A DNA stretch of 32,000 bases from Candidatus Nanoarchaeia archaeon. GTDB taxonomy: Archaea; Nanobdellota; Nanobdellia; Woesearchaeales; JANQNC01. Positions 15,255-32,000 of the stretch are shown here, piece by piece. The stretch lies in the NCBI GenBank assembly GCA_028279745.1, contig JANQNC010000001.1, forward strand, positions 480,001-512,000, in the 5' to 3' direction. The notes beneath the pieces were generated by a model. That model did no database searches and was not told the DNA's origin. It saw only the letters and a program-made list of their open reading frames with translations. The position numbers were made by a program, and so were the translations under genes. Position 1 is the stretch's first letter; the number at the start of each line of letters is the position of its first letter.

Positions 15255-17474
15255 TTATAACGATCCAGAATAAACTTTCTGCAACTTATCATTTACTGAT
15301 TTAAGAGAATAATCTTTCTCTGCCTTGCTCCTTGCCTGTTTAGAAAGTGAATTCCTTAATGACTTATTTTTCATCAATAATAAAAGTTTATCTTTAAACG
15401 ATTTTTCGTCACTTAGTTCGGCAGTAAATCCTGCACTCCCAACAATTTCTGGGATAGCAAACGTGTTTGATGCAACGACAGGCAGACCATAACTAAGCGC
15501 TTCCGTTACAACTATGCCAAACGGCTCGTTTAGTGTAGGGAAAAAGAATATGTCTGAGGAACCCATTAACTCTTTTACTTTTCTCTCTTTAACAAAACCA
15601 AGGTGTTTTATCTTTCTGTTACTATTTATTATCTTTAAAGTCTTCTTGCTTTTTGGAGTGCTGCCAGTTATGATAAGTTCTGCATTCACTCCTTTAGAAA
15701 TTTCATCAAACAGTTTAACTGCTAAATCTCCTCCTTTTCTCTCAAAAACGGAAGCAACAAAAAGAACTTTAATCTTCTTGTTTGGTTTTTTGTTAAGTTT
15801 TGGCAGATCTATACCACAAGGAACAATATTTATCTTTTTAGCTAACTGATCTTTATCTCCCTCTGAAAGTTGGTTAAGAAAATGGGTTTTAGCAGTATTA
15901 GAACGTAAAAGGATAGATTTACAACTTTCTTGTTTAAGCGCTCTCAAAAGAACATTCCACTCACTAGGGCACGACCTTTCTCTGTCTATTATGTCTGCAG
16001 AATACACCCAATGAATATCAGAAAAAATAACATTACCATCACAATGGATCAAGTCATAATTATTATCACTGTTTACTTTCATAACTTCAGGATAATCTTT
16101 TGACCTAAAATAAGGCAACAGCTTTAGCCCCGAGTATTTGAAAAAAGAACCTAACCAGTTTATTGAAGGTTTTGTCATCGCAAGATACTCCTTTCGCATA
16201 TTGTAAAGACAGGTAAAGTCTAATTTGCTGAAGTAGTTCCCTTCCCCAAACTTGTTCTTACAAAACGCAGGAAGGTAGTAATCAACTTTTTCTGGTCCTG
16301 TTGAGAATAAAGAAGAAATATATCTGTAATTTCCAGAACTCATCGTGTTAATATCCCACGGGAAAAGCATCACTTTTAGCTTTACTGAGTTGTATAGATC
16401 AGACAGCTTCTTCTCTATCACTTCCGCTGAAAAATTCTTGATAAGATATTTTTTTCCTTCCCCTCCCAGCCTTCTTCGGAGTGCTTTATTACTGATTAGT
16501 TTTTTGAGTTTGGTTTTTAGCTGTGCAAGGTTGTCTTTCTTTATCAAAAAACCCGTTTTTCCATCAACAACTTGTTCAGGAATCCCACAAACACTTGTTG
16601 CAATAACCGGTAAAGAATGGTTCATTGCCTCGAAAATACTTAAAGGAGTTCCTTCACCTCTGCTCGGCAAACAGAATATATCTGCAGACTTATAAAGCTC
16701 TGAGAGCTTTTTGTCCGATACAGATTCAAATATAGTAACATTTCTTATCTTCTCTGCCACAACTTCCATCTTTATATCTGGTTTGCCCACCAAAATAAGT
16801 TTAGCATCATCTTGAATATCTTTAAACGCATCTAGAATTAGGTCCGCGCCTTTTCGTCTTAGTTGATGGCCCACCATCAAAACAACTGGTTTTTTGTTAG
16901 CTTTTTTCTTAAACTGTTTTTCAATCTTAATAGGTTGAGGAATTACTGCAGTTTTAGACTTATCAAAGCCTGTATCTTTTATGAAACTGTCTCTTGCAAA
17001 CTCCGAGAAAAAAACAACTTTTTTACAGTTGGGGTGGTTTAATACTTTAAGATATTTTCTTGAAAAATGTTTAATCCAAAATTTTGATAGCTTATGCTTA
17101 TCACTCAAGCCCCAAATCCTAACTGAGTCGAAGGGGGTGTTGTCAAAAAAATGAATATTTGGCTTATTTGTCATAGCAATCTTATCGTAAACTTGAACAA
17201 TGTCCACATCTTTCGGAACTCTAATATTGGCAAAGTACGAACTAAGCATCTGGAAAGGTTTGACATAGTGGTTTCCAGTTACATAAGGCACCCTTATCCT
17301 AGAAATGTCTAAGGATGACTGTTCTACCTCAACTTTTCTTAAACTTTTTATTTTTGGAAAATTTTTAGGAACAAAATAAGAAAAACTATCTGATTTAATA
17401 TCTGCAAGCTTAAGAAAGTAGCCAGTGCTGCCTCCAAAATGCTTATCCGTATATCCCGTCAACAATATATTCAT
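15255..17474 (-). CDS. Tandem double GT4 glycosyltransferase (two complete GT-B modules in one 739-aa polypeptide)
   Basis: There are two separate EX7E regions: RGEGTPLSIFEAMNHSLPVIAT in the first half and NEPFGIVVTEALSYGLPVVAS in the second half. The module boundary is near aa 375 (about nt 16350). An ATGA overlap joins it to the flippase gene at 17471-17474. Confidence 0.85.
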   Translation of the reverse strand: MNILLTGYTDKHFGGSTGYFLKLADIKSDSFSYFVPKNFPKIKSLRKVEVEQSSLDISRIRVPYVTGNHYVKPFQMLSSYFANIRVPKDVDIVQVYDKIAMTNKPNIHFFDNTPFDSVRIWGLSDKHKLSKFWIKHFSRKYLKVLNHPNCKKVVFFSEFARDSFIKDTGFDKSKTAVIPQPIKIEKQFKKKANKKPVVLMVGHQLRRKGADLILDAFKDIQDDAKLILVGKPDIKMEVVAEKIRNVTIFESVSDKKLSELYKSADIFCLPSRGEGTPLSIFEAMNHSLPVIATSVCGIPEQVVDGKTGFLIKKDNLAQLKTKLKKLISNKALRRRLGGEGKKYLIKNFSAEVIEKKLSDLYNSVKLKVMLFPWDINTMSSGNYRYISSLFSTGPEKVDYYLPAFCKNKFGEGNYFSKLDFTCLYNMRKEYLAMTKPSINWLGSFFKYSGLKLLPYFRSKDYPEVMKVNSDNNYDLIHCDGNVIFSDIHWVYSADIIDRERSCPSEWNVLLRALKQESCKSILLRSNTAKTHFLNQLSEGDKDQLAKKINIVPCGIDLPKLNKKPNKKIKVLFVASVFERKGGDLAVKLFDEISKGVNAELIITGSTPKSKKTLKIINSNRKIKHLGFVKERKVKELMGSSDIFFFPTLNEPFGIVVTEALSYGLPVVASNTFAIPEIVGSAGFTAELSDEKSFKDKLLLLMKNKSLRNSLSKQARSKAEKDYSLKSVNDKLQKVYSGSL

Positions 17475-23288: not shown

Positions 23289-23296
23289 ATTTAAAT
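23289..23296 (-). promoter_or_regulatory. Palindromic TATA-like box ATTTAAAT for the epimerase gene
   Basis: The reverse strand reads ATTTAAATAAAAACTAATTAAGAAAATTCTTAAAAAAGAGGTTTAATATG. The stop codon TAA (23293-23291) of the upstream small gene lies inside the box. Confidence 0.45.
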
Positions 23297-23590
23297 GTTT
23301 TTATTATTCTTTAACTTCTTTCTTACAAAATGAACTGCAAATAAAGCACCTACTGTGAACATAATATATACTGCCATGTCTGAAAACTCAGGAGTGTTAT
23401 AGAACTGCTGGCAAGTTCCCTCAGCACCATTAGGCCCTACAGGATAACCATTAACATCCAAACAAACACTACATTCGGAATCAACCTCGCAAGGATTATC
23501 TTCATATGTGCAAGGCAAGTTACATGCATCTTGAGCGATAACATTCGATAAAAGAACCAATGCTAAAAATAAAAATAAAAAATGTTTCAT
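23291..23590 (-). CDS. Small secreted six-cysteine protein with a PEF-CTERM-like sorting tail
   Basis: 99 aa. The signal peptide is MKHFLFLFLALVLLSNVIA|QD. The ~46-aa ectodomain has 6 Cys (C-x3-C-x6-C-x5-C-x2-C-x16-C). The tail is PEF + SDMAVYIMFTVGALFAVHFV + RKKLKNNKNI. A TAAAATG junction joins it to the upstream gene. Confidence 0.75.
   Translation of the reverse strand: MKHFLFLFLALVLLSNVIAQDACNLPCTYEDNPCEVDSECSVCLDVNGYPVGPNGAEGTCQQFYNTPEFSDMAVYIMFTVGALFAVHFVRKKLKNNKNI
23294..23392 (-). other. PEF-CTERM-like C-terminal sorting signal (motif, TM helix, basic tail)
   Basis: PEFSDMAVYIMFTVGALFAVHFVRKKLKNNKNI. Confidence 0.6.
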
Positions 23591-23591
23591 T

Positions 23592-23876
23592 TTACTTTTT
23601 CTTTCGTATTAATGTGAAAGCAGCTCCGCCCGCAACTATAGCCGCACCAATACCTAAAGTGGTAAGTTCCGGAACTTCTGATTCCTCACCAAAAGGCGGG
23701 TAACAGTAGTTAGTCTTATTTTCTCCTCCACAGTACCAACCCTCTCCACAGACATCATCACAGAAAAGGTCTCCACCTTCACCTGCAACACATATCTCAT
23801 CTCCAGGGATACATTGTGCAAAAGCAACTGAAGCAGCCAATAATACAAAAACAAAATATATCATTAGTTTACTCAT
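23592..23876 (-). CDS. Small secreted six-cysteine protein with a PEL variant of the PEF-CTERM-like tail
   Basis: 94 aa. The signal peptide is MSKLMIYFVFVLLAASVAFA|QC. The ~48-aa Gly/acidic-rich ectodomain has 6 Cys (C-x6-C-x9-C-x3-C-x5-C-x8-C) and one N-K-T sequon. The tail is PEL + TTLGIGAAIVAGGAAFTLI + RKKK. Confidence 0.75.
   Translation of the reverse strand: MSKLMIYFVFVLLAASVAFAQCIPGDEICVAGEGGDLFCDDVCGEGWYCGGENKTNYCYPPFGEESEVPELTTLGIGAAIVAGGAAFTLIRKKK
23595..23672 (-). other. PEF-CTERM-like C-terminal sorting signal (PEL variant)
   Basis: PELTTLGIGAAIVAGGAAFTLIRKKK. Confidence 0.55.
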
Positions 23877-23877
23877 T

Positions 23878-24936
23878 TTATTTACCTCCTAATCTTTTCT
23901 TTCTAACTCTTAAAAATCCAACAGCACCAATAGCTAAAGCAGTCCCTGCTGCTACTGTGCCCATCTCAGGAATCTCAAATCCAAAATCAAATGGTGTTTC
24001 TTCTTCACTCAAGTCAATAACATCATTACCACAGCTAAGGCTTGAATGCACAATAACTTTACCATCTGAAGGATCAGGATTGCCTATACAGCTAAGAGGA
24101 ATCTTAACCTCAATAACATAAGTGTCTTGACGACCCGCAAATATGCCTGAACCAGAAGCAGGATCAGTTCCTGAGTAACCTTCTAAAGGAATATTGTCTC
24201 GTTTAACATATGCGACTTCAGCACAGCCTTCTTGAATATTGTCACATTCGTCAACGTGAGAATGTCCGTTTTCATCTATTATAGTTCCATCAACCCAGTC
24301 AGGCTCCTCACAAATGTCACCCATTCTTAGAGATGGATCACTTCCATCCCCATAGTTTGTGTGGTTGTTCAAAACAATACCATATGTGTATGAGAAAGGA
24401 TTCAAAACTTTTATTTCCAGATCCCCCATCCAGTAAGGATCCTCCCCATCATAAATTATTCCTGGAGGCATAGATGTAATTATTGCAAAATAAGCGTTGT
24501 TTTCATCATTATCAAAATAAATTGCTTCAATATCAAACTGCTCACCAAAAACAGGCTCTAAAACATTAAACGGATTGGTGACGGGTTCATCATAATCCTG
24601 CTGATTAGCACCTTTACCTTTTATGTGGATACCTGTTGCGGAAAAGTTACTTGCTAAATCCGTAAAGTATGATGGTTGCCCATGTTGTTCAGGATCTCTG
24701 TTGTTCTCAACAACATAGTCAACTGTTGAATGAGAAGGCTTCCATGCCTGCCTTGCAGTGGCTTCACTGTTTGAACAAGTGTTCGTGCCATTGTTTAACT
24801 CACATAAACCAACTCTTATATCGTTGTCATTAAGCCCCCAGTCTTCAAGATCTCCATCAACTGTATATGAGGCTGCCAAAACTCCACTAATAGAAACTAC
24901 AAGCGCGAAAAGCACCATAAAAATTTTATTTTTCAT
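23878..24936 (-). CDS. Secreted acidic surface protein with a PEM variant of the PEF-CTERM-like tail
   Basis: 352 aa. The signal peptide is MKNKIFMVLFALVVSISGVLA|AS. The mature N-terminus YTVDGDLEDWG resembles the start of CBM9/DOMON-like carbohydrate-binding modules, but the similarity is weak. It has 8 Cys and the sequons NGT, NFS and NHT. The tail is PEM + GTVAAGTALAIGAVGFL + RVRKKRLGGK. An SD GAGGT lies 6 nt upstream. Confidence 0.8.
   Translation of the reverse strand: MKNKIFMVLFALVVSISGVLAASYTVDGDLEDWGLNDNDIRVGLCELNNGTNTCSNSEATARQAWKPSHSTVDYVVENNRDPEQHGQPSYFTDLASNFSATGIHIKGKGANQQDYDEPVTNPFNVLEPVFGEQFDIEAIYFDNDENNAYFAIITSMPPGIIYDGEDPYWMGDLEIKVLNPFSYTYGIVLNNHTNYGDGSDPSLRMGDICEEPDWVDGTIIDENGHSHVDECDNIQEGCAEVAYVKRDNIPLEGYSGTDPASGSGIFAGRQDTYVIEVKIPLSCIGNPDPSDGKVIVHSSLSCGNDVIDLSEEETPFDFGFEIPEMGTVAAGTALAIGAVGFLRVRKKRLGGK
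23881..23970 (-). other. PEF-CTERM-like C-terminal sorting signal (PEM variant)
   Basis: PEMGTVAAGTALAIGAVGFLRVRKKRLGGK. Confidence 0.55.
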
Positions 24937-24983
24937 ATTACCTACCTCTCAAGGTTATTAAGTGTCATTTCTGGCAGTTTAAG

Positions 24984-24991
24984 TATATAAA
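24984..24991 (-). promoter_or_regulatory. TATA-like box (reverse strand TTTATATA) for the three-gene cargo operon 24936->23291
   Basis: The box lies about 50 nt upstream of ATG 24936. It predicts a ~25-nt leader carrying the SD GAGGT (24948-24944). Confidence 0.4.
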
Positions 24992-25039
24992 ACTTGTGTA
25001 TTGCCCCTTACACTATTTATTGTTGATAAAATAGATAAT

Positions 25040-25047
25040 TTTATAAA
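25040..25047 (+). promoter_or_regulatory. TATA-like box TTTATAAA for the operon starting at 25090
   Basis: The context is GATAATTTTATAAACAAAATTTGTCAGGAATAGGTAAAGCAAGGAGGGTCTAAACAATG. It predicts a TSS near 25070 and a leader carrying the SD AGGAGG (25075-25080). Confidence 0.45.
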
Positions 25048-25089
25048 CAAAATTTGTCAGGAATAGGTAAAGCAAGGAGGGTCTAAACA

Positions 25090-26403
25090 ATGAAGATAAG
25101 TGTATTCGGATTAGGATATGTAGGATGTGTTAGTAGTGCAGCATTTGCACACATGGGACATAAGATAATAGGAGTGGATCTAAACAAAATAAAAGTAGGA
25201 TTAATCAATGACGGGAAAAGCCCAATAGTAGAAAAAAACCTCGGGAAATATATCAAGGCAGGCATAAAAAACAAAAGACTAAGAGCTACAACAGACACTG
25301 AAGATGCTGTTTTAAATTCAGATGTTTCTTTAATATGTGTGGGAACACCAAGCAAAAAGTCAGGAGGACTAGACTTAAAATATACAAAAGCAGTATGCGA
25401 GGCAATAGGTAAAACCCTAAAGAAGAAAAAAGGCAATCATATCGTAATATTCAAATCAACAATGCTTCCAGGAAGCGCAGAAGATGTACTGACACCTGTG
25501 CTAGAAAAAGCATCAGGCAAAAAAGTCGGAAAAGGATTTGATGTTGTAAGTAATCCAGAATTCCTAAGAGAAAGTACAGCAATATATGACTTTTTCAATC
25601 CACCATCAACAGTAATCGGTGCTAATAACAAAAAAGCGGCAGACACAGTAGAGAAAATCTACAAAGGAGTGAAAGGGCCTTTTGTAAAGACCACCATCAA
25701 GACAGCAGAAATGGTTAAGTATACAGACAACTGTTTCCACGGATTAAAAGCAGCCTTCGGAAACGAGATAGGTGACGTATGTAAAAAAGTTGGAGTGGAT
25801 GGACATGAACTAATGAGAATATTCTGCTTGGACACCAAATTAAATCTATCACCTTACTACTTCAAACCAGGGTTCCCCTTCGGAGGAAGCTGTTTGCCTA
25901 AAGATGTAAGAGGAATGAATGCAGAAGCTAAAAAAGTTGGTTTAAGTTTACCAATATTAAAAAACATAATCCCAAGCAATAGAAACCAAATAGATATCTG
26001 TACAAATATGATCCTTAACACAAAAAAGAAAAACATAGGTATCTTGGGGTTAAGCTTTAAGGCAGATACAGACGACATAAGGGAAAGCCCAATCATAGAC
26101 ATAATCCACAATCTAAGGAAGAAAAGGAAAAATGTCATGATATATGACAGCAATGTCTTAACAGCACAAAAGTTTGGTGCGAATAAAGATGTTATCGAGA
26201 AAGAAGCACCGCACTTAATGGATCACTTCACACATTCACTTGCTGAACTGGTGAGAAAATCTGATGTTATAGTGTTTGAAAACAAAGACAAAGAATTTGA
26301 GAAAGTTTTACCTATGATAAAAAAGAAACACATAGTTATAGACTTTGTTAGATTCACATCACCCGACAAAGTAAAAGGAGTTTACGAGGGACTATGCTGG
26401 TAA
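25090..26403 (+). CDS. algD: Nucleotide-sugar 6-dehydrogenase, GDP-mannose 6-dehydrogenase (AlgD)-like
   Basis: 437 aa. Its motifs match my recollection of Pseudomonas AlgD better than Ugd: ISVFGLGYVG, LINDGKSPIVE, ICVGTPSKK, NPEFLRESTAI, GFPFGGSCLPKDV (catalytic Cys), LGLSFKADTDDIRESP and the extreme C-terminus EGLCW (AlgD ends EGICW). Ugd-type enzymes read GTGYVG and GGSCFPKD instead. The symbol denotes the family, not proven specificity. Confidence 0.85.
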   Translation: MKISVFGLGYVGCVSSAAFAHMGHKIIGVDLNKIKVGLINDGKSPIVEKNLGKYIKAGIKNKRLRATTDTEDAVLNSDVSLICVGTPSKKSGGLDLKYTKAVCEAIGKTLKKKKGNHIVIFKSTMLPGSAEDVLTPVLEKASGKKVGKGFDVVSNPEFLRESTAIYDFFNPPSTVIGANNKKAADTVEKIYKGVKGPFVKTTIKTAEMVKYTDNCFHGLKAAFGNEIGDVCKKVGVDGHELMRIFCLDTKLNLSPYYFKPGFPFGGSCLPKDVRGMNAEAKKVGLSLPILKNIIPSNRNQIDICTNMILNTKKKNIGILGLSFKADTDDIRESPIIDIIHNLRKKRKNVMIYDSNVLTAQKFGANKDVIEKEAPHLMDHFTHSLAELVRKSDVIVFENKDKEFEKVLPMIKKKHIVIDFVRFTSPDKVKGVYEGLCW

Positions 26404-27167
26404 ACAAAAAAAATTTATTTTTTGTAATTTTTATTCTTTCAATTAGTCTTGTTCTTGCATATGAAGAACAACAAGGCCAAGACTCATACTTGGCAATATG
26501 GGCAGAACACCCATCATTTTATGCTAACTATACCGGCGTGGGAGACTGCACAATAAGATTTTATGACTATGATGCATGGACAAACCCAGTATACATGGAA
26601 GGAACAGACGGGTTATATCAAACAGAATACGAGTTAAGTGAAGGAGAACATGACTGGACAGTTTCTTGTTATGATGGAAATGAAAACTTACTTTTAACAG
26701 ATACCGTTAATGTAGGTGTTGAGGTTCTCGAAGAAGACGATTATGGAAAGATAGAATGGAAAAACGGCAATCCATTTGGAAAAGACGAGGAAGAATATAC
26801 TCTGGTTGACTATAGACTGGCAGCTGCAGACTCTTCAGTGCTAGATGAAGGAGTAGACACTTCAGCAAGAATCACACTTAAACAAACCGACATATACGGC
26901 AGACCAACACTATGTTACAGACCCGACTTCAGTGAATTTTTTACAGAGGTTACAGGGAATTGCAGAGACTGTGAAGCAGACGGAATATGCACTTTGATAA
27001 GCTACTCAGATGGTGAAGTTGTTTTTGATGTTACACACTTCTCAAGCTTCGGCGTTGATGGAAGTCCTGTTGCATATGAAGCACCAGAATTTTCAGTTAC
27101 AGGAATAATAGCTACAGTCATAATTGCAGGAATTGCACTATTTTTGTATCATAAAAAAACACAGTAA
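26394..27167 (+). CDS. Secreted acidic surface protein with a PEF-CTERM-like tail
   Basis: 257 aa. The signal peptide is MLVNKKNLFFVIFILSISLVLA|YE. It has 6 Cys and an NYT sequon. EGEHDWTVSCYDGNEN resembles the G-x-H-x-[WY]-x-V-x-[AC]-x-D-x-x-G-N strand motif of bacterial/archaeal Ig-like domains, but the similarity is weak. The tail is PEF + SVTGIIATVIIAGIALFLY + HKKTQ. The gene overlaps the dehydrogenase gene by 10 nt. Confidence 0.8.
   Translation: MLVNKKNLFFVIFILSISLVLAYEEQQGQDSYLAIWAEHPSFYANYTGVGDCTIRFYDYDAWTNPVYMEGTDGLYQTEYELSEGEHDWTVSCYDGNENLLLTDTVNVGVEVLEEDDYGKIEWKNGNPFGKDEEEYTLVDYRLAAADSSVLDEGVDTSARITLKQTDIYGRPTLCYRPDFSEFFTEVTGNCRDCEADGICTLISYSDGEVVFDVTHFSSFGVDGSPVAYEAPEFSVTGIIATVIIAGIALFLYHKKTQ
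27084..27164 (+). other. PEF-CTERM-like C-terminal sorting signal
   Basis: PEFSVTGIIATVIIAGIALFLYHKKTQ. Confidence 0.6.
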
Positions 27168-27187: not shown

Positions 27188-28924
27188 ATGAAAAAGCTAA
27201 CACTGCTAATACTTGTATCATTATTCATTCTGCCAGCCGTGCTTGCATATAAAGTCGATCCTGACGAACTTACTTATACTGAAAAAGAAGTGGTGGGATA
27301 TTCCGCACTAAATATAAGAGGGATAGACAACCAAGGATACACACAAGGAAAATCATTCAAATGGAAAGTTGATATGTACTTGCCAGAAGAAACTTTTGTA
27401 TACGCACAACCAGTATCAAAAATAGTACTTAGGATAAGGAATGCGACAAAACCTTTCACTGTGCCGAAAGAGGCAGTGTTTACAGGGATGGAAAGGTATC
27501 CCTTAACAGGAAACTTTAGGACCGTTACAGGAATTAAAGACTTAGACGTAGTATATTACCATTCTATGTGGTCTGTTGGAGGAAATAGCATAGCTTCCAC
27601 ACCTCAACAAAATACTATTGCAGTCAACAACGGGAGATATCAAAAAGTTACAATACACCTACCTGAAAAACCCATACTCAAAAAGATAGGTGATGCTGAA
27701 AGACCAAAAGATGTCATCAAGATGGACGAGTCTACCTACTTCTTCCCACACATAGAACTGCCAGCAGTTGTATACTATGATCCCGGGAAAAAGTCTGCCG
27801 TGCAGAAAGGACTGATCCTAATCTTAATACTAGCAACCATCGCATTATTTACGCTAGCAAAATTCATACCCTCATTCAACATAAAATCAAAACACATGCT
27901 GCTTGCATTAATACTTACATTCTTACTTATGGCCCAATTCGCACAAATAGTCCCAAACCCAGAAAAAACAGTCCTAAACTTACAAAAATCAACAAAACCC
28001 TTTGAAACAGATAAAAAAGTGCTTTCGACATTTACCACCTATCTCTGGAACACAATAGGGTTAACAAAAACTATCGACTATGCAATCATAGGAAACAGCT
28101 ACAAATGCGGGAGTAAACAATACTTCTTAACAGAAAGAAGCGCTGAAAAAATATTTGTTGTGGACAAGTATGAAAACTACAGATGTTCGAGAAACCTATT
28201 TGAAAATTTCAACTCATCCAAAATAGAAGTGATGAGCATCGAAGAGATAGAAGAAGAACTAAGCAAAGAGGGCAGCTTAAGACATCCTTTCAAAAAGTTG
28301 TTCATAACAAATGCTAAACTGATAACATTCCTATCTGCAATACTGTTCTCTTTCTTAAGTGCATATCTAATATTGCTGGTAGTAGAGATTAAGAAAACAA
28401 AAATATGGCTTGCTGCAATAATAATGTTTGTTTCATATTTTTTACTCAAACTGTTCTATACCCTCATAGGCTACATTGCACATATGCCTGTAAGTTATCA
28501 CGGAAACCTTCCTTTCGGAATGACTTTAACCGCATTCTTCATGCCCGACACAGTCTTTGGAGGGAACACAGTAAGGCTTATCTTTTCTGTACTCGGGGTA
28601 CTTATATTAATTTTCTCAAGAATGTTTAGAAGAAAAATAAATATTGCGTTAGTTTTTGTACCTATACTTTTTATGATACTATTGTTGGCACTGCCACAAA
28701 CAGAGTTCATGGCAAAAAGAGAAGTAATAACCGTAATGTCTGGAGAAGGATTCTTGTATGACCAGAGAATAGGGAACGCCTTCTCTCTAAAAGAGATGTA
28801 TACTAAGATGAGGAACGAAGATTATAAACAAGTCCAAAATTATCTATGCACAAGAGATGATCTAAAAGACTCTCTCACACAAAAAGTATTAGCATGCGAA
28901 AGTAAAGGGGATGATACAAAATGA
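27188..28924 (+). CDS. Uncharacterised polytopic membrane protein with an N-terminal ~190-aa exported domain
   Basis: 578 aa. The signal peptide is MKKLTLLILVSLFILPAVLA|YK, followed by a soluble domain and 2 TM helices. A ~120-aa loop (with Cys in YKCGSKQ and YRCSRN) precedes about 5 more TM helices and an ~80-aa soluble C-terminus. I recognise no family motif. An ATGA overlap joins it to the next gene at 28921-28924. Confidence 0.75.
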   Translation: MKKLTLLILVSLFILPAVLAYKVDPDELTYTEKEVVGYSALNIRGIDNQGYTQGKSFKWKVDMYLPEETFVYAQPVSKIVLRIRNATKPFTVPKEAVFTGMERYPLTGNFRTVTGIKDLDVVYYHSMWSVGGNSIASTPQQNTIAVNNGRYQKVTIHLPEKPILKKIGDAERPKDVIKMDESTYFFPHIELPAVVYYDPGKKSAVQKGLILILILATIALFTLAKFIPSFNIKSKHMLLALILTFLLMAQFAQIVPNPEKTVLNLQKSTKPFETDKKVLSTFTTYLWNTIGLTKTIDYAIIGNSYKCGSKQYFLTERSAEKIFVVDKYENYRCSRNLFENFNSSKIEVMSIEEIEEELSKEGSLRHPFKKLFITNAKLITFLSAILFSFLSAYLILLVVEIKKTKIWLAAIIMFVSYFLLKLFYTLIGYIAHMPVSYHGNLPFGMTLTAFFMPDTVFGGNTVRLIFSVLGVLILIFSRMFRRKINIALVFVPILFMILLLALPQTEFMAKREVITVMSGEGFLYDQRIGNAFSLKEMYTKMRNEDYKQVQNYLCTRDDLKDSLTQKVLACESKGDDTK

Positions 28925-29742
28925 GATTCAAAAAACTATTGACTGCACTGTTACTTTCGTTCCCACTAGTGCAAGCTCAAGGAATAAGCAGCATGCTAGA
29001 CACGGCACAATACAGTAGAGGAATGATGCTGTTCTTCTTATGTTTAGCAATATTAATAGCATTCCCTTTCATCAACAAACAGATAAAAAGCATCATGCTT
29101 ATACCCTTCCTTTTCATCCTGGGAAGAGGGCTTATAAGGATTGGAGAACAAGACATAGTAAAAGCATTTACAAGTGTGCTTCCAGGACTAAAAGTGGGCG
29201 TGCCGCTTGCAATTGTTCTAGTTGTAGTGAGCGCAATACTTTTTGTGCCAGTGTATCTGTTACGTAAAGCAAATATAATAAAACCAGAGACAACTGACTC
29301 TTTAGAAAAATACTTCAAAGAAGGAACAAAAAAAGGCCACGACATAGAAAGCCTGAAAAAAGCACTGTACCTTCAAGGAATATCAAAAATAGATGTGGAT
29401 GATGCAGCACAAAGTGCAATATCTTCCCCATTACTTAGAAAAATAACTGAAAAAGTAAAAGGTAAGAAAAGCGTTACTTCACTAAAAGACTATTTTGACC
29501 AAGGTCTGAAAAAAGGCTACTCAGTTAGTGCTCTTAAAATGACTTTAGTTAAAAAAGGATTTGAACAAAGCGTAGTAGAAAAAGCTTCAGATAGATTCAA
29601 AAAACCAGAAAGCTACCTGGAAGAATACATACAAAAAGGACTGAAAAAAGGATTTAAGATCGAATCTTTAAAAAAAGCACTGTTAAAACAAGGTGTTGAT
29701 TCAAAAGATCTTGAAAATGCAATTAACAAGGTGACAAAATGA
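28921..29742 (+). CDS. Uncharacterised membrane protein with three C-terminal ~40-aa helical repeats
   Basis: 273 aa. The signal-like N-terminus MRFKKLLTALLLSFPLVQA|QG is followed by three hydrophobic helices. After LLRKANIIK come three repeats of the L-x-x-Y-[FI]-x-x-G-L-K-K-G-[YFH]-x-[IV]-x-[SA]-L-K-x-x-L-x-x-x-G type. Confidence 0.75.
   Translation: MRFKKLLTALLLSFPLVQAQGISSMLDTAQYSRGMMLFFLCLAILIAFPFINKQIKSIMLIPFLFILGRGLIRIGEQDIVKAFTSVLPGLKVGVPLAIVLVVVSAILFVPVYLLRKANIIKPETTDSLEKYFKEGTKKGHDIESLKKALYLQGISKIDVDDAAQSAISSPLLRKITEKVKGKKSVTSLKDYFDQGLKKGYSVSALKMTLVKKGFEQSVVEKASDRFKKPESYLEEYIQKGLKKGFKIESLKKALLKQGVDSKDLENAINKVTK
29299..29730 (+). repeat. Three protein-level repeats (aa 127-166, 187-226 and 231-270 of the 273-aa protein)
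   Basis: The repeats are SLEKYFKEGTKKGHDIESLKKALYLQGISKIDVDDAAQSA, SLKDYFDQGLKKGYSVSALKMTLVKKGFEQSVVEKASDRF and SYLEEYIQKGLKKGFKIESLKKALLKQGVDSKDLENAINKV. Confidence 0.8.
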
Positions 29743-30113
29743 AATTTTTAGACACTAAACTATTCGCAATCATCTCTAACCTTCCATTAATAGGCGGTCT
29801 AATGACCCTATTATTCATAATCTCAATAATAAACAATAAACAACTGCTTCCAGAGTCCACAAGGAAAGGAATAGCTATGCAGTTCTTTGCACCGCTGGTC
29901 TACTTTATAGGAAGACTGGTTTCATTCCTACTTTGGTTCTTCTTTGGGCTAATGATCCTAGAAAAAATAATATCCTGGATTTCACTAATATGGTTATTAG
30001 GGTGTTATATCTACATGCTGAAAAACGTGCTGACAATAATAAAAGACAAGAAAGCAGACTATGGTTTATTTGATGTTCCTTTAAAGGTCATAGAAAAGTT
30101 CTTATGGCACTAA
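29739..30113 (+). CDS. Small (124 aa) membrane protein with 3-4 TM helices, function unknown
   Basis: The sequence reads MKFLDTKLFAIISNLPLIGGLMTLLFIISIINNK...AMQFFAPLVYFIGRLVSFLLWFFFGLMILEKIISWISLIWLLGCYIYML. An ATGA overlap joins it to the upstream gene, with the SD AGGTGA upstream. It resembles DUF4870-type small membrane proteins only loosely. Confidence 0.6.
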   Translation: MKFLDTKLFAIISNLPLIGGLMTLLFIISIINNKQLLPESTRKGIAMQFFAPLVYFIGRLVSFLLWFFFGLMILEKIISWISLIWLLGCYIYMLKNVLTIIKDKKADYGLFDVPLKVIEKFLWH

Positions 30114-30973
30114 ATTTTAGAAGAACTTATCTTCTTCCATTCATCCTTAAGATTTTTGTTTTGCTTTAAGTCAAGATACGCACTTACCCATATGTACAAA
30201 TCTAAAAAAAGATAGGGCCAAGCGTAAATGCTAGTGAATAAATATCTAAGATCTGAAACTGACCTCTGTCGCTTAATGTTCATTCCTGCTTTAGTCATCT
30301 GCCACCAACCATATCTCACCCTTTTCTTCTCAACAATATAATCATTAAGCGTGTGAGCAGGATTGACTAGAACTTTTGCATCGGGCTCGTAGACTATGCT
30401 GTATCCTTTATTCTTTATATTCCAACCCAGAAGAGCATCTTCAACAGTATTTGATTTATCAATACTAACAAAAGCTTTCTTTCTTACTGCAAACAAATAA
30501 CCGTTAAGCGCAAACAAAGAACCTGCCTCTGATTCTTTTGATCTTCGTTCGTGCAAAACATCCCACCCAAACTTTTGAAGGTTAGCAAAGAAATTATCAC
30601 ACAGATAAGGAACTGTTCTGCCCATAACCGCACCTATTGAGCTATCATTAAAATGAGGCAGAAGCTTTTTTATAGAGCCTTGTTTTATTATCAAATCAGC
30701 ATCGGTGAAAACAACAAGCTCATTCCTCGCTTTTTTCATTATAACATTTTGAGCAGAACCTTTACCAGAACGGGCAGATTCTTCAATAAGTTTTATCCTC
30801 TTATCTTTTCTTGCATACTTTTTTACAACATCCACAGTATAATCTGTGCATGCAGAAGCAACCACAATAAGCTCATCAGTCTTATTTAGTTCGGGCAAAA
30901 TGCTACTTACTGCTCTCCCAATACTTTTTCCTTCATTATATGCACAGATCCCCACAGTAATGTTGTTAACCAT
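30110..30973 (-). CDS. GT2-family glycosyltransferase
   Basis: Motifs are ITVGICAYNEGKSIGRAVSSIL, LIVVASACTDYT and LVVFTDADLII (DxD). There is a C-terminal hydrophobic segment. I prefer ATG 30973 (MVNNITV...) over the track's TTG 30976. Confidence 0.85.
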   Translation of the reverse strand: MVNNITVGICAYNEGKSIGRAVSSILPELNKTDELIVVASACTDYTVDVVKKYARKDKRIKLIEESARSGKGSAQNVIMKKARNELVVFTDADLIIKQGSIKKLLPHFNDSSIGAVMGRTVPYLCDNFFANLQKFGWDVLHERRSKESEAGSLFALNGYLFAVRKKAFVSIDKSNTVEDALLGWNIKNKGYSIVYEPDAKVLVNPAHTLNDYIVEKKRVRYGWWQMTKAGMNIKRQRSVSDLRYLFTSIYAWPYLFLDLYIWVSAYLDLKQNKNLKDEWKKISSSKI

Positions 30974-30996
30974 CAAATAAAAAATGAAAAACAGAC

Positions 30997-31004
30997 TTTA
31001 AAAA
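30997..31004 (-). promoter_or_regulatory. TATA-like box (reverse strand TTTTTAAA) about 26 nt upstream of ATG 30973
   Basis: No SD lies between the box and the ATG. The spacing predicts a leaderless mRNA. Confidence 0.35.
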
Positions 31005-31041
31005 CATTTCTACTGAGAACGCAACAAAATCAAGCAAAACA

Positions 31042-31049
31042 TTTATAAA
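31042..31049 (+). promoter_or_regulatory. TATA-like box TTTATAAA upstream of the phosphosugar transferase gene
   Basis: The context is CAAAACATTTATAAATACAGCAAGGGGAAAAATAATG. The box centre is about 24 nt upstream of ATG 31069. An AAGGGG lies 7 nt upstream of the ATG, so the mRNA is either leaderless or has a very short leader. Confidence 0.45.
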
Positions 31050-31068
31050 TACAGCAAGGGGAAAAATA

Positions 31069-32000
31069 ATGAAGATGATCTGGATAAATATTGTTGCAGC
31101 ATTCCTAATAGCTTGCGTTTCATCACTGTTCTTCTTTAAAGTAATCACACGAAAACTTAAATCAAAAAAAATATTCAGACTAGACACAAACAAGTATTCA
31201 AAAGAAAGAAAAGTACCTGCACTAGGAGGGATAGCAGCGTTCATGGGATTCATATTTACAATAACAGTGATGATGGGTGTTTTTGCAATATTTGATAAGA
31301 ATGTAATTGACACAAACATACTAATGTTTGGCTTATTGACAGTAACCTTACTTGCCCTACTTGGAATGGTAGATGACATCCTAGAGTTTACAAGAAAAAG
31401 AACGAAACCTCTGATGGCAATATTCGCAACAATACCTTTAGTTGCAGCAAACTACACCAAACAAACAATAGTCAATGTCCCGTTCATAGGAAATGTAGAA
31501 TTTGGAATACTATACGCATTAGTGATAATCCCAATAATCATCGTATTCTGTTCAAATGCAGTCAACATCTTAGCAGGATTAGATGGATTGGTTCCGGGGA
31601 TGGGCGCAATAGCAACATTAGGGTTACTGATAATATCATACATGAAGTTTAACACAACTGCAGTATTATTTCTGACTACTCTACTTGCAGTGCAGATGAC
31701 TTTATACAAGTATAACCGTTACCCTTCCAGGATACTTCCCGGCAACATAGGAACCTTATTTATTGGGGGTGCAATAGCCGTAGGAGCAATAATAGGAAAC
31801 ATAGAACGGGCATTGGTAATAGTTATGGTACCCTATGGTCTTCACTTCTTGTTATACATACGAACCTGGTTTAAGTTTACACCAAAAGCGATGGGCGATT
31901 ACACAACAAAAAAAGGGGTGCTGAAAACAAGAGCAAAAAAGTCATATGGGTTGACAATCTTCTTGATGAAACACTTCAAAAACATGACTGAAAAAAGTAT
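31069..32000 (+). CDS. Polyprenyl-phosphate HexNAc-1-phosphate transferase (MraY/WecA/GPT family; archaeal AglH-like), 310 codons; the C-terminus lies beyond the right edge
   Basis: Absent from the ORF track because it has no stop inside the window. My translation reads MKMIWINIVAAFLIACVSS...VPALGGIAAFMGF...LLGMVDDILEF...FCSNAVNILAGLDGLVPGMG...YPSRILPGNIGTLFIGGAIAVG... The D-D motif, N-x-x-N-x-x-A-G-x-D-G-L and P-G-x-x-G-S/T-x-x-x-G are hallmarks of this family. Confidence 0.9.
   Translation, partial: MKMIWINIVAAFLIACVSSLFFFKVITRKLKSKKIFRLDTNKYSKERKVPALGGIAAFMGFIFTITVMMGVFAIFDKNVIDTNILMFGLLTVTLLALLGMVDDILEFTRKRTKPLMAIFATIPLVAANYTKQTIVNVPFIGNVEFGILYALVIIPIIIVFCSNAVNILAGLDGLVPGMGAIATLGLLIISYMKFNTTAVLFLTTLLAVQMTLYKYNRYPSRILPGNIGTLFIGGAIAVGAIIGNIERALVIVMVPYGLHFLLYIRTWFKFTPKAMGDYTTKKGVLKTRAKKSYGLTIFLMKHFKNMTEKS

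What the first reader, a model, noticed from the sequence alone, without database searches (positions are those of the whole stretch)
23291..27167. Four secreted proteins share a P-E-[F/L/M] + TM helix + Arg/Lys tail, an archaeosortase-type (PEF-CTERM-like) cargo cluster inside the glycan island with no sortase gene in view
Seen: all four have N-terminal signal peptides (..VIA|QD, ..AFA|QC, ..VLA|AS and ..VLA|YE). They end in YNTPEFSDMAVYIMFTVGALFAVHFVRKKLKNNKNI, SEVPELTTLGIGAAIVAGGAAFTLIRKKK, FEIPEMGTVAAGTALAIGAVGFLRVRKKRLGGK and YEAPEFSVTGIIATVIIAGIALFLYHKKTQ. Established: a short signature motif followed by a hydrophobic helix and a basic cluster at the extreme C-terminus defines exosortase/archaeosortase sorting signals such as PEP-CTERM, PGF-CTERM and PEF-CTERM (Haft, Payne and Selengut 2012). 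To my recollection PEF-CTERM is paired with archaeosortase C. Haloferax ArtA removes the PGF-CTERM of the S-layer glycoprotein, which becomes lipid-anchored. Exosortase systems are typically embedded in exopolysaccharide loci. Inference: these proteins are processed by an archaeosortase encoded elsewhere, or by an unrecognised enzyme nearby. They are the protein partners or substrates of the surrounding glycosylation genes. Three of them carry N-x-S/T sequons (NKT; NGT, NFS, NHT; NYT), and all have even Cys counts. The F/L/M wobble and the tiny size of two cargos do not fit any described subfamily neatly.
Basis: partly seen in the sequence, partly recalled or inferred. Interest (0 to 1): 0.8.

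Follow-up and report, generated by a model that had tools for sequence, protein, structure and literature searches.

The report
Archaeosortase-type surface-protein cargo cluster
Four neighbouring genes in a sugar-chain gene island encode secreted proteins ending in the same short sorting tag, which related microbes pair with a membrane enzyme (archaeosortase) that clips and re-anchors surface proteins; this is an ordinary, previously unannotated example of a known system.

Summary
Four real genes (23291-23590-, 23592-23876-, 23878-24936-, 26394-27167+) encode a signal peptide, an acidic Cys-containing ectodomain, x-P-E-[F/L/M], a TM helix and a basic end. No other window ORF has this tail. One correction: cargo 3 has 7 Cys, not an even number.

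Cargo 3's globular domain belongs to a family annotated PF26596 "PEF-CTERM_ARCH". In 26 loci found through this cargo, a homologue lies within about 250 bp of an archaeosortase/exosortase gene in six (ArtC above cutoff in L007 and L025). L012, found through its sortase, shows the same pairing. The same domain carries curated-cutoff PEP-CTERM tails in bacterial-type homologues, so the tail changes with the sorting system. Tail variants PEF, PEM, PEY, PES and PAF occur naturally, so the F/L/M wobble is not exceptional.

None of the four tails reaches the TIGR03024 cutoff (best 13.3 vs 23 bits), but that model also misses tails next to bona fide ArtC. For cargos 1, 2 and 4 the only evidence is the tail and the clustering.

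The window holds no sortase. I could not determine whether the 1.30-Mb source genome encodes one.

Verdict: new member of a known kind, modest interest.

The parts
23878..24936 (-). Cargo 3, 352 aa: signal peptide (1-21), acidic beta-rich ectodomain of the PF26596 'PEF-CTERM_ARCH'-type family, then the tail FEIPEMGTVAAGTALAIGAVGFLRVRKKRLGGK. First gene of a three-gene operon.
   Evidence: ORF; homologues with conserved tails; homologues next to sortases; AF2 model has a beta-rich core at 136-309, mean pLDDT 57.9
23592..23876 (-). Cargo 2, 94 aa: signal peptide, 48-aa acidic ectodomain with 6 Cys and one NKT sequon, then the tail VPELTTLGIGAAIVAGGAAFTLIRKKK. It starts 1 nt after the cargo-3 stop codon.
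   Evidence: the L010 orthologue has a nearly identical tail but a divergent ectodomain
23291..23590 (-). Cargo 1, 99 aa: signal peptide, 47-aa acidic ectodomain with 6 Cys, then the tail TPEFSDMAVYIMFTVGALFAVHFVRKKLKNNKNI. Last gene of the operon.
   Evidence: the L010 orthologue has APEMSS at the motif
26394..27167 (+). Cargo 4, 257 aa: signal peptide, 208-aa acidic ectodomain with 6 Cys and an NYT sequon, then the tail APEFSVTGIIATVIIAGIALFLYHKKTQ. Its start overlaps the end of the UDP-sugar dehydrogenase gene by 10 nt.
   Evidence: best PEF-CTERM score of the four (TIGR03024 13.3 bits, cutoff 23); ranks first of 258 window ORFs with an independent tail profile; no homologues in any fetched locus
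23878..23970 (-). Sorting-signal tail of cargo 3 (PEM + TM + RVRKKRLGGK + stop)
23592..23672 (-). Sorting-signal tail of cargo 2 (PEL + TM + RKKK + stop)
23291..23392 (-). Sorting-signal tail of cargo 1 (PEF + TM + RKKLKNNKNI + stop)
27084..27167 (+). Sorting-signal tail of cargo 4 (PEF + TM + HKKTQ + stop)
24937..25089 (.). 153-bp AT-rich divergent intergenic region between the cargo3-2-1 operon and the ugd-cargo4 operon. It holds TATA-like elements and Shine-Dalgarno-like sequences before both start codons, and is the presumed shared promoter region.
   Evidence: sequence; function is inferred
25090..26403 (+). UDP-glucose/GDP-mannose dehydrogenase family gene, first gene of the operon that contains cargo 4
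   Evidence: Pfam
27188..28924 (+). 578-aa membrane protein: signal peptide, an ectodomain of about 185 aa, and about 6 further TM segments. It lies 20 nt after cargo 4 and has no known family. It is not sortase-like.
28921..29742 (+). 273-aa membrane protein (signal peptide, 3 TM, three helical repeats of about 45 aa) with overlapping start/stop in the same operon; function unknown
29739..30113 (+). 124-aa protein with 3 TM segments, last gene of the same operon; function unknown
31066..32000 (+). MraY/WecA-type polyprenyl-phosphate sugar-phosphate transferase, running off the window end. The same family lies near the cargo and sortase in L005, L007 and L012.

Best explanation
The four genes encode Sec-secreted surface proteins that carry a PEF-CTERM-class tripartite sorting signal, with a relaxed third motif residue in this lineage (F, L or M).

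Proposed sequence of events:
1. Export, and removal of the N-terminal signal peptide.
2. The C-terminal helix holds the protein temporarily in the membrane.
3. An archaeosortase of the ArtC / 'exosortase-archaeosortase family' type, encoded elsewhere in the roughly 1.3-Mb genome, recognises the x-P-E-[F/L/M] motif at the membrane surface.
4. Using its Cys/Arg/His site, the enzyme cleaves off the helix and basic tail and transfers the new C-terminus to a membrane lipid, or possibly a glycan acceptor.

The two operons sit in a surface-glycan island, as the cargo and sortase do in several relatives. The proteins are therefore probably glycosylated components of, or partners for, the cell-envelope glycan. 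Cargo 3's beta-sandwich core may bind carbohydrate.

Shown here: the tail architecture, its conservation, membership of cargo 3 in a sortase-linked cargo family, and the absence of a sortase from the window.
Inferred: the steps after export (cleavage, lipid attachment, glycosylation), and that cargos 1, 2 and 4 use the same route.
For: - Architecture: only these four ORFs in the window have the tripartite tail.
- Cargo 3 homologues keep the tail across lineages: IPEMG, VPEMG, VPEFG, IPEFL.
- Among 26 cargo-led loci, a homologue lies next to a sortase-family gene in L005, L007, L011, L018, L020 and L025, with fragments in L028.
- L007 and L025 sortases score 157.5 and 156.5 bits on TIGR03762 ArtC (cutoff 100). 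L005, L018 and L020 pass TIGR04178 (cutoff 23).
- Sortase-led locus L012 (30% GC): ArtC at 115 bits, followed directly by a PF26596 'PEF-CTERM_ARCH' protein 29% identical to cargo 3, inside a glycan island.
- The cargo-linked sortases keep invariant Cys, Arg and His.
- The same domain carries PEP-CTERM tails that pass TIGR02595 (22.8-27.8 bits, cutoff 16) in L009, L026 and L027. The L021 member passes TIGR03024 (23.3 vs 23).
- Motif variants PEF, PEM, PEY, PES and PAF occur on this domain. PEF and PEM swap between orthologues of cargo 1, and cargo 2's tail is far better conserved than its ectodomain.
- A tail profile built only from other lineages ranks cargos 4, 3 and 2 first to third of 258 window ORFs.
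- Mechanism by analogy with ArtA: cleavage, Cys-173 active site, lipid attachment that depends on PssA/PssD (PMC6098224, PMC7157517).
Against: - No window tail reaches the curated PEF-CTERM cutoff (best 13.3 vs 23 bits; cargos 1-3 get no hit).
- Cargo 1 ranks only 6th (E = 1.2) with the independent tail profile.
- No archaeosortase from the source genome was found. Two word-indexed searches and 20 looked-up representatives from an exhaustive HMMER search gave nothing on the 1,301,350-bp contig. These searches cannot prove absence.
- Cargos 1, 2 and 4 have no homologues linked to a sortase.
- About 70% of cargo-led loci show no sortase within reach, and many of those contigs are short.
- ArtC itself has never been characterised biochemically, so the mechanism is borrowed from ArtA.
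Confidence: 0.68

Rival explanations
1. The proteins are plain type-I membrane proteins. The C-terminal helix is a permanent anchor that is never cleaved, and PE[F/L/M] is only a conserved juxtamembrane motif, either inherited from a sortase-dependent ancestor or useful for helix capping.
For: No sortase was found in the window or, so far, in the source genome. The tails fail the curated PEF-CTERM cutoff. Cargo 2's Gly/Ala-rich helix is very strongly conserved, as expected of a helix that has a lasting role. Some archaea without archaeosortase keep TM-anchored S-layer subunits (PMC6098224).
Against: Four otherwise unrelated ectodomains share the motif at the same distance from the helix and from the protein end, without DNA-level duplication. 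Cargo 3's family is repeatedly next to sortases, and its tail changes with the sorting system (PEF vs PEP). Sorting signals are themselves strongly conserved.
Confidence: 0.2
2. The tails are processed by a new, unrecognised enzyme encoded nearby, for example the 578-aa polytopic protein co-transcribed with cargo 4, instead of a canonical archaeosortase.
For: The 578-, 273- and 124-aa membrane proteins form one tight operon with cargo 4 and match no family or solved structure. No canonical sortase has been located.
Against: The 578-aa protein has no similarity to sortase profiles. Its four Cys lie outside the predicted TM segments, so there is no membrane-embedded Cys like that of exosortases. 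None of the three proteins has a homologue in the 28 related loci, whereas canonical sortases recur there. The cargo3-2-1 operon has no such neighbour in L010.
Confidence: 0.06
3. The tails are LPXTG-like signals for a classical (bacterial-type) sortase.
For: The isolated cargo 2 tail scores 17.9 bits on TIGR01167 (cutoff 15.9), and cargo 3 scores 14.9 bits.
Against: The alignments cover only profile positions 7-33 or 10-33, that is the helix and basic end, not the LPXTG motif. Full-length scores fall below the cutoff. None of the four tails has an L-P-x-T-G sequence. Relatives pair with exosortase-family enzymes, not sortases.
Confidence: 0.02

Closest known systems
PEF-CTERM sorting signal / archaeosortase C (TIGR03024 / TIGR03762; Haft, Payne and Selengut 2012)
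   Same: Signal peptide plus P-E-F-type motif, TM helix and basic end at the extreme C-terminus. Cargo 3's domain family sits next to ArtC that passes the curated cutoff (L007, L025, L012), and one member (L021) passes the PEF-CTERM cutoff. The system is embedded in glycan loci.
   Different: The window tails score 13.3 bits or less against a cutoff of 23. The third motif residue is F, L or M. Two cargos are tiny (mature ectodomains of about 47 aa with 6 Cys). No ArtC is in the window, and its presence in the genome is unverified.
Pfam PF26596 'PEF-CTERM_ARCH' protein family
   Same: Cargo 3 is homologous to annotated members: P0005 and P0006 (E = 1.6e-26 and 1.7e-24) and the L012 315-aa protein (E = 6e-25 in a small database). 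They share the conserved core YFAI..S, GD, YGI, YV.E and SCGND.
   Different: Cargo 3 itself carries no precomputed PF26596 annotation, and the model is missing from the local Pfam copy, so it could not be scored directly. Its tail is PEM rather than PEF.
PGF-CTERM / archaeosortase A (Haloferax volcanii S-layer glycoprotein)
   Same: The same tripartite logic, and the only archaeosortase system with experimental proof of cleavage, the Cys/Arg/His site and lipid anchoring. Its substrates are glycoproteins.
   Different: The motif differs (PGF vs PE[F/L/M]) and so does the sortase subfamily. There is no Thr-rich linker here, and no PGF-CTERM HMM hit.
PEP-CTERM / exosortase (EpsH, XrtA) of bacteria
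   Same: The bacterial-type homologues of cargo 3's domain (L009, L026, L027) carry PEP-CTERM tails that pass the curated cutoff. The system is classically linked to exopolysaccharide loci.
   Different: The window tails get no TIGR02595 hit, and the third residue is hydrophobic rather than Pro.
Firmicu-CTERM domain proteins / XrtG (TIGR04145 / TIGR03110)
   Same: Weak similarity between the globular domain of cargo-3 family members and the Firmicu-CTERM domain (E = 1e-5 to 4e-3, below cutoff). The cargo-linked sortases also hit XrtG weakly.
   Different: All scores are below cutoff and cargo 3 itself gets no hit, so this is a lead and not a membership.

Membership tests
PEF-CTERM sorting domain (TIGR03024) | Tripartite C-terminus: signature motif, then a hydrophobic helix, then a basic cluster, ending the protein | tested here: met
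   All four proteins: PE[F/L/M] lies 23-30 residues from the end, followed by 17 or more hydrophobic residues and 2-6 Lys/Arg
PEF-CTERM sorting domain (TIGR03024) | Score at or above the curated cutoff (23 bits) | tested here: not met
   Cargo 4's isolated tail scores 13.3 bits; cargos 1-3 get no hit. Control: the tails of the L007 and L025 cargos beside bona fide ArtC get no hit, L012 scores 22.6, L004 scores 18.3, and only L021 passes at 23.3. The model is narrow.
PEF-CTERM sorting domain (TIGR03024) | N-terminal signal peptide (Sec substrate) | tested here: met
   By inspection: n-h-c regions and A-x-A-like sites in all four. No dedicated predictor was available.
PEF-CTERM / ArtC system | An archaeosortase (ArtC or family) encoded in the same genome | tested here: inconclusive
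   None in the 32-kb window. Searches for a sortase on the 1,301,350-bp source contig found none, but they were limited by the word index, the candidate cap and only 20 look-ups.
PEF-CTERM / ArtC system | Cargo family genomically linked to the sortase in other genomes | tested here: met
   Met for cargo 3 only: L005, L007, L011, L018, L020, L025 and L012/L013. Not met for cargos 1, 2 and 4, which have no distant homologues.
PEF-CTERM / ArtC system | Sortase-dependent removal of the C-terminal helix and covalent re-anchoring | not testable with these tools
   Needs proteomics or genetics. It has been shown experimentally only for ArtA/PGF-CTERM (PMC6098224, PMC7157517).
Pfam PF26596 PEF-CTERM_ARCH (cargo 3 only) | Homology of the globular domain to family members | tested here: met
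   HMMER E = 1.6e-26 and 1.7e-24 to P0005 and P0006, which carry PF26596. BLASTP E = 6e-25 to the L012 PF26596 protein. A direct model score was impossible because the model is absent from the local Pfam copy.
LPXTG cell-wall anchor (TIGR01167 / PF00746) | L-P-x-T-G motif before the helix | tested here: not met
   None of the four tails contains the motif. The HMM alignments begin at profile position 7 or later, so they cover only the helix and basic tail. Full-length scores are below cutoff.
PEP-CTERM (TIGR02595) and PGF-CTERM (TIGR04126) | Hit to the curated model | tested here: not met
   No hit at E <= 10 for full-length proteins or isolated tails, whereas the bacterial-type homologues of cargo 3 do pass TIGR02595
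Exosortase/archaeosortase (TIGR04178 / PF09721), for any window protein | Polytopic protein with a conserved Cys...Arg...His signature region | tested here: not met
   Profile HMMs from 22 and 52 sortases, run with --max against all six-frame window ORFs: best 7 bits. NCBIfam gives no sortase hit for the 578-aa protein, and its Cys residues lie outside the TM segments.

The most novel reading that the evidence does not exclude
This AT-rich, small-genome lineage uses a relaxed PE[F/L/M]-CTERM signal that current models cannot see, and applies it to two unusually small cargos (mature ectodomains of about 47 residues, 6 Cys, strongly acidic). These would be the smallest archaeosortase substrates known, in effect lipid-anchored or released disulfide-knotted surface peptides. 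Alternatively, the genome lacks any canonical archaeosortase and a different enzyme reads the tails.
Probability: 0.15. Interest if true: 0.55.

Novelty: new member of a known kind. Interest (0 to 1): 0.3.

Why it matters
If correct, this adds an unannotated set of archaeosortase substrates in a poorly known, AT-rich lineage with a small genome.

It also shows that the curated PEF-CTERM model misses many genuine tails, including some that lie right beside bona fide ArtC genes and some in ANME-1, a group reported to lack PEF-CTERM proteins. Surveys that rely on that model therefore undercount this anchoring route.

It provides candidate envelope proteins, one with a possible carbohydrate-binding fold, tied to a large surface-glycan locus. 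It also offers two very small Cys-rich cargos that would be convenient substrates for testing ArtC-type processing, which has never been studied experimentally.

It does not reveal a new kind of system.

Tried and rejected
1. Exact-sequence look-ups of window proteins (cargo 3, cargo 4, P0001) in the contig index returned nothing. The source contig could not be read beyond the window.
2. The source genome was not among the hits of the genome-contig scan.
3. Sortase hunt in the source genome. A profile of three cargo-linked sortases gave 23 hits. An exhaustive HMMER search gave 1,188 hits, of which 150 were listed. Contig look-ups of 20 representatives, chosen by score and AT-rich composition, followed. 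None of these was on the 1,301,350-bp contig. The result is inconclusive, not negative.
4. The seven-sequence cargo alignment was too divergent for the locus scan; a four-sequence alignment worked.
5. The local Pfam copy lacks PF26596, so cargo 3 could not be scored directly.
7. The single-sequence AF2 model of cargo 4 was unusable (pLDDT 40.6).
8. The 578-aa neighbour was rejected as a hidden sortase.
9. The LPXTG reading was rejected because the HMM matches exclude the motif.
10. Recent DNA duplication of the tails was rejected.
11. The sigma-70 promoter and intrinsic-terminator scan showed no enrichment and was uninformative. No tRNA or Rfam features were found.
12. Haft et al. 2012 (PMC3256604) is not held in the library. 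What I say about it comes from reviews that cite it and from my own knowledge.

Full report
**1. What is in the sequence**

The window is AT-rich (32-39% GC) and has no tRNA or Rfam features. It is almost entirely a surface-glycan island. The island holds:
- about ten GT4 glycosyltransferases, one of them a fused double GT4
- four GT2 glycosyltransferases
- two PMT_2 (GT-C) enzymes
- two hexapeptide acyltransferases
- MOP/Wzx-type flippases
- an NAD-dependent epimerase
- a UDP-glucose/GDP-mannose dehydrogenase
- an MraY/WecA-type sugar-phosphate transferase at the right edge

Three form a minus-strand operon with 1-nt gaps: cargo 3 (23878-24936), cargo 2 (23592-23876) and cargo 1 (23291-23590). 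The fourth, cargo 4 (26394-27167, + strand), overlaps the end of the dehydrogenase gene by 10 nt. It is followed, with short gaps or overlaps, by three uncharacterised membrane proteins of 578, 273 and 124 aa. The two operons diverge from a 153-bp AT-rich spacer.

Yes. Each protein has, in order:
- a typical signal peptide
- an acidic ectodomain (17-23% Asp+Glu, 0-5% Lys+Arg) with 6, 6, 7 and 6 Cys
- x-P-E-[F/L/M]
- a hydrophobic helix
- a Lys/Arg cluster, with the protein ending 23-30 residues after the motif

A scan of all six-frame ORFs in the window found this combination only in these four. The tail-coding DNA segments are not recent copies of each other: the Pro and Glu codons differ, and the only shared word is a 16-mer within the TM-coding parts of cargos 2 and 3. 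The motif is therefore maintained at the protein level in four otherwise unrelated proteins.

The genes are real. A metagenomic contig (L010) carries the same cargo3-cargo2-cargo1 operon at 69, 49 and 51% identity, with many synonymous differences. In cargo 2 the tail (VPELTT[L/I]GIGAAI[V/I]AGGAAF...RKKK) is nearly identical while the ectodomain has diverged. In cargo 1 the motif is PEF in the window and PEM in the orthologue.

The claim of even Cys counts fails for cargo 3, which has 7.

**3. Curated-model tests**

Neither the full-length proteins nor the isolated tails hit PGF-CTERM or PEP-CTERM. Only cargo 4 touches PEF-CTERM (TIGR03024), at 13.3 bits against a cutoff of 23.

The weak LPXTG hits for cargos 2 and 3 align only profile positions 7-33 or 10-33. 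That covers the helix and basic end but not the LPXTG motif, so they carry no weight.

The PEF-CTERM model is narrow. It gives no hit for the tails of the L007 and L025 proteins, which lie directly beside archaeosortase C genes scoring 157.5 and 156.5 bits (cutoff 100). It gives 22.6 bits for the L012 protein beside an ArtC of 115 bits, 18.3 for an ANME-1 protein (L004), and 23.3 (a pass) for L021. Failing this cutoff therefore lowers the formal membership claim but says little about function.

**4. Comparative evidence for cargo 3**

Cargo 3 has homologues that keep the tail: IPEMG, VPEMG, VPEFG, IPEFL, and one LPAFS. Two of them carry the precomputed Pfam annotation PF26596, whose name elsewhere in the tool output is 'PEF-CTERM_ARCH'.

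Scans of species-representative genomes and of JGI metagenomes, plus two contig look-ups, gave 26 cargo-led loci. The named ones are Altiarchaeota, ANME-1/Methanophagaceae, Ca. Alkanophaga, Methanosarcinales, an uncultured archaeon and one 'uncultured bacterium'.

A sortase profile finds an exosortase/archaeosortase-family gene next to the cargo homologue (within about 250 bp) in L005, L007, L011, L018, L020 and L025, plus fragments in L028. L007 has the arrangement cargo-ArtC-cargo. These sortases keep invariant Cys, Arg and His, the residues shown to matter in Haloferax ArtA (PMC6098224, PMC7157517).

Starting instead from a sortase, locus L012 (30% GC) has ArtC followed directly by a PF26596 protein 29% identical to cargo 3. 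That pair sits in a glycan island with a hexapeptide transferase, a UDP-sugar dehydrogenase, an MraY-like transferase, a GT4 and a flippase, much like the window.

Three homologues of bacterial type (L009, titled 'uncultured bacterium'; L026 and L027, unnamed metagenome contigs) carry VPEPS...-type tails on the same globular domain. These pass the curated PEP-CTERM cutoff at 22.8-27.8 bits against 16. A domain whose C-terminal tag changes with the sorting system of its host is good evidence that the tag is a sorting signal and not just an anchor.

On this one domain the motif appears as PEF (most common), PEM, PEY, PES and PAF.

**5. Cargos 1, 2 and 4**

These have no detectable relatives beyond the L010 orthologues of cargos 1 and 2. 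Their assignment rests on the shared tail, the operon with cargo 3 (for cargos 1 and 2) and the clustering.

A tail profile built from 20 tails of other lineages ranks cargos 4, 3 and 2 first to third among 258 window ORFs (E = 0.011-0.041). Cargo 1 ranks only sixth (E = 1.2). That is supportive but weak, as expected for a model of about 30 positions.

Other loci also cluster unrelated PEF-tailed proteins near a cargo-3 homologue, for example L001 7338-8051.

**6. The missing enzyme**

No window ORF resembles a sortase.

The 578-aa polytopic protein co-transcribed with cargo 4 matches no NCBIfam, Pfam or PDB entry. Its four Cys lie outside the predicted TM segments, and it has no counterpart in any related locus. 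I found nothing to support it as the processing enzyme.

Window proteins map to a single 1,301,350-bp contig held by NCBI and Logan. That contig could not be read. I used its length as a fingerprint in searches for a sortase and found none.

Absence from the neighbourhood is not unusual. Most cargo-led loci with long flanks also lack a nearby sortase: L001, L003, L004, L006, L008, L009, L015, L016, L021 and L026.

**7. Structure**

The AF2 model of cargo 3, built from a seven-sequence alignment, has mean pLDDT 57.9 with a moderately confident beta-rich core at residues 136-309. Foldseek against the PDB gives no match below E = 1e-3. The top hits are carbohydrate-binding or DOMON-like beta-sandwiches (CBM74, CBM9, BACUNI_03838).

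Some family members also match the Firmicu-CTERM (XrtG cargo) domain weakly.

A glycan-binding role is therefore a lead only. The cargo 4 model was unusable.

**8. Conclusion**

The best explanation (confidence about 0.68) is a cluster of PEF-CTERM-class archaeosortase substrates embedded in a surface-glycan locus, with the sortase encoded elsewhere.

Shown: the tail architecture and its conservation, the family link between cargo 3 and sortases, and the tag swapping.
Inferred: cleavage, lipid or glycan attachment, glycosylation, and extension to the three orphan cargos.

Rivals:
- permanent TM anchors (0.20)
- a novel nearby enzyme (0.06)
- LPXTG-type sorting (0.02)

This is a new, unannotated member of a known kind of system. 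Its practical value is to show how much the curated PEF-CTERM model misses, and to offer very small candidate substrates for the uncharacterised ArtC branch.

Noticed in passing
window 27188-30113 (+): Three uncharacterised membrane proteins are co-transcribed with cargo 4. One is 578 aa (signal peptide, an ectodomain of about 185 aa, about 6 more TM segments; no Pfam, NCBIfam or PDB match). One is 273 aa (signal peptide, 3 TM, three helical repeats of about 45 aa with weak RecX-repeat similarity). One is 124 aa (3 TM). None has a homologue in any of the 28 related loci.
   Followed up: partly
window 30966-31379 (-) and 31066-32000 (+): The 137-aa minus-strand ORF is probably spurious. It overlaps a plus-strand MraY/WecA-type sugar-phosphate transferase (TIGR00445, 68 bits) that runs off the window end. 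The same transferase family lies near the cargo and sortase in L005, L007 and L012.
   Followed up: partly
L004, L015, L016 (ANME-1-type loci): ANME-1/Methanophagaceae contigs carry tandem PEF-tailed paralogues of the cargo-3 family, although a 2017 review (PMC5244752) reported PEF-CTERM domains absent from ANME-1. The tails score 18.3 bits, below the 23-bit cutoff, so the reported absence looks like a threshold artefact.
   Followed up: partly
L009 2680-3579, L026 9743-10654, L027 1687-2547: Bacterial-type versions of the cargo-3 globular domain carry PEP-CTERM tails that pass the curated cutoff. One surface domain is thus shared between archaeosortase and exosortase systems.
   Followed up: yes
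P0005; L004 8793-9647; L021 5464-6399: The globular domain of the cargo-3 family weakly resembles the Firmicu-CTERM domain (TIGR04145, cargo of the Gram-positive exosortase XrtG), with E = 1e-5 to 1.5e-2, all below cutoff.
   Followed up: no
window 15255-17474 (-): A 739-aa protein made of two complete GT4 glycosyltransferase modules fused in tandem (two Glycos_transf_1 stretches).
   Followed up: no
L003 9412-9891; L001 5539-6027; L005 8368-8913: A membrane protein of about 160-180 aa, with weak similarity to YdjM-like metal-dependent hydrolases, recurs near the cargo-3 homologue in three loci (L003 and L005 are Altiarchaeota MAGs, L001 an uncultured archaeon). No equivalent is present in the window.
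   Followed up: no
L012 7750-9390 and 13174-14733: In the AT-rich locus where ArtC and its cargo sit inside a glycan island, two large proteins (546 and 519 aa) without Pfam families flank the PIG-L deacetylase, sortase and cargo genes. They are not homologous to the window's 578-aa protein.
   Followed up: partly
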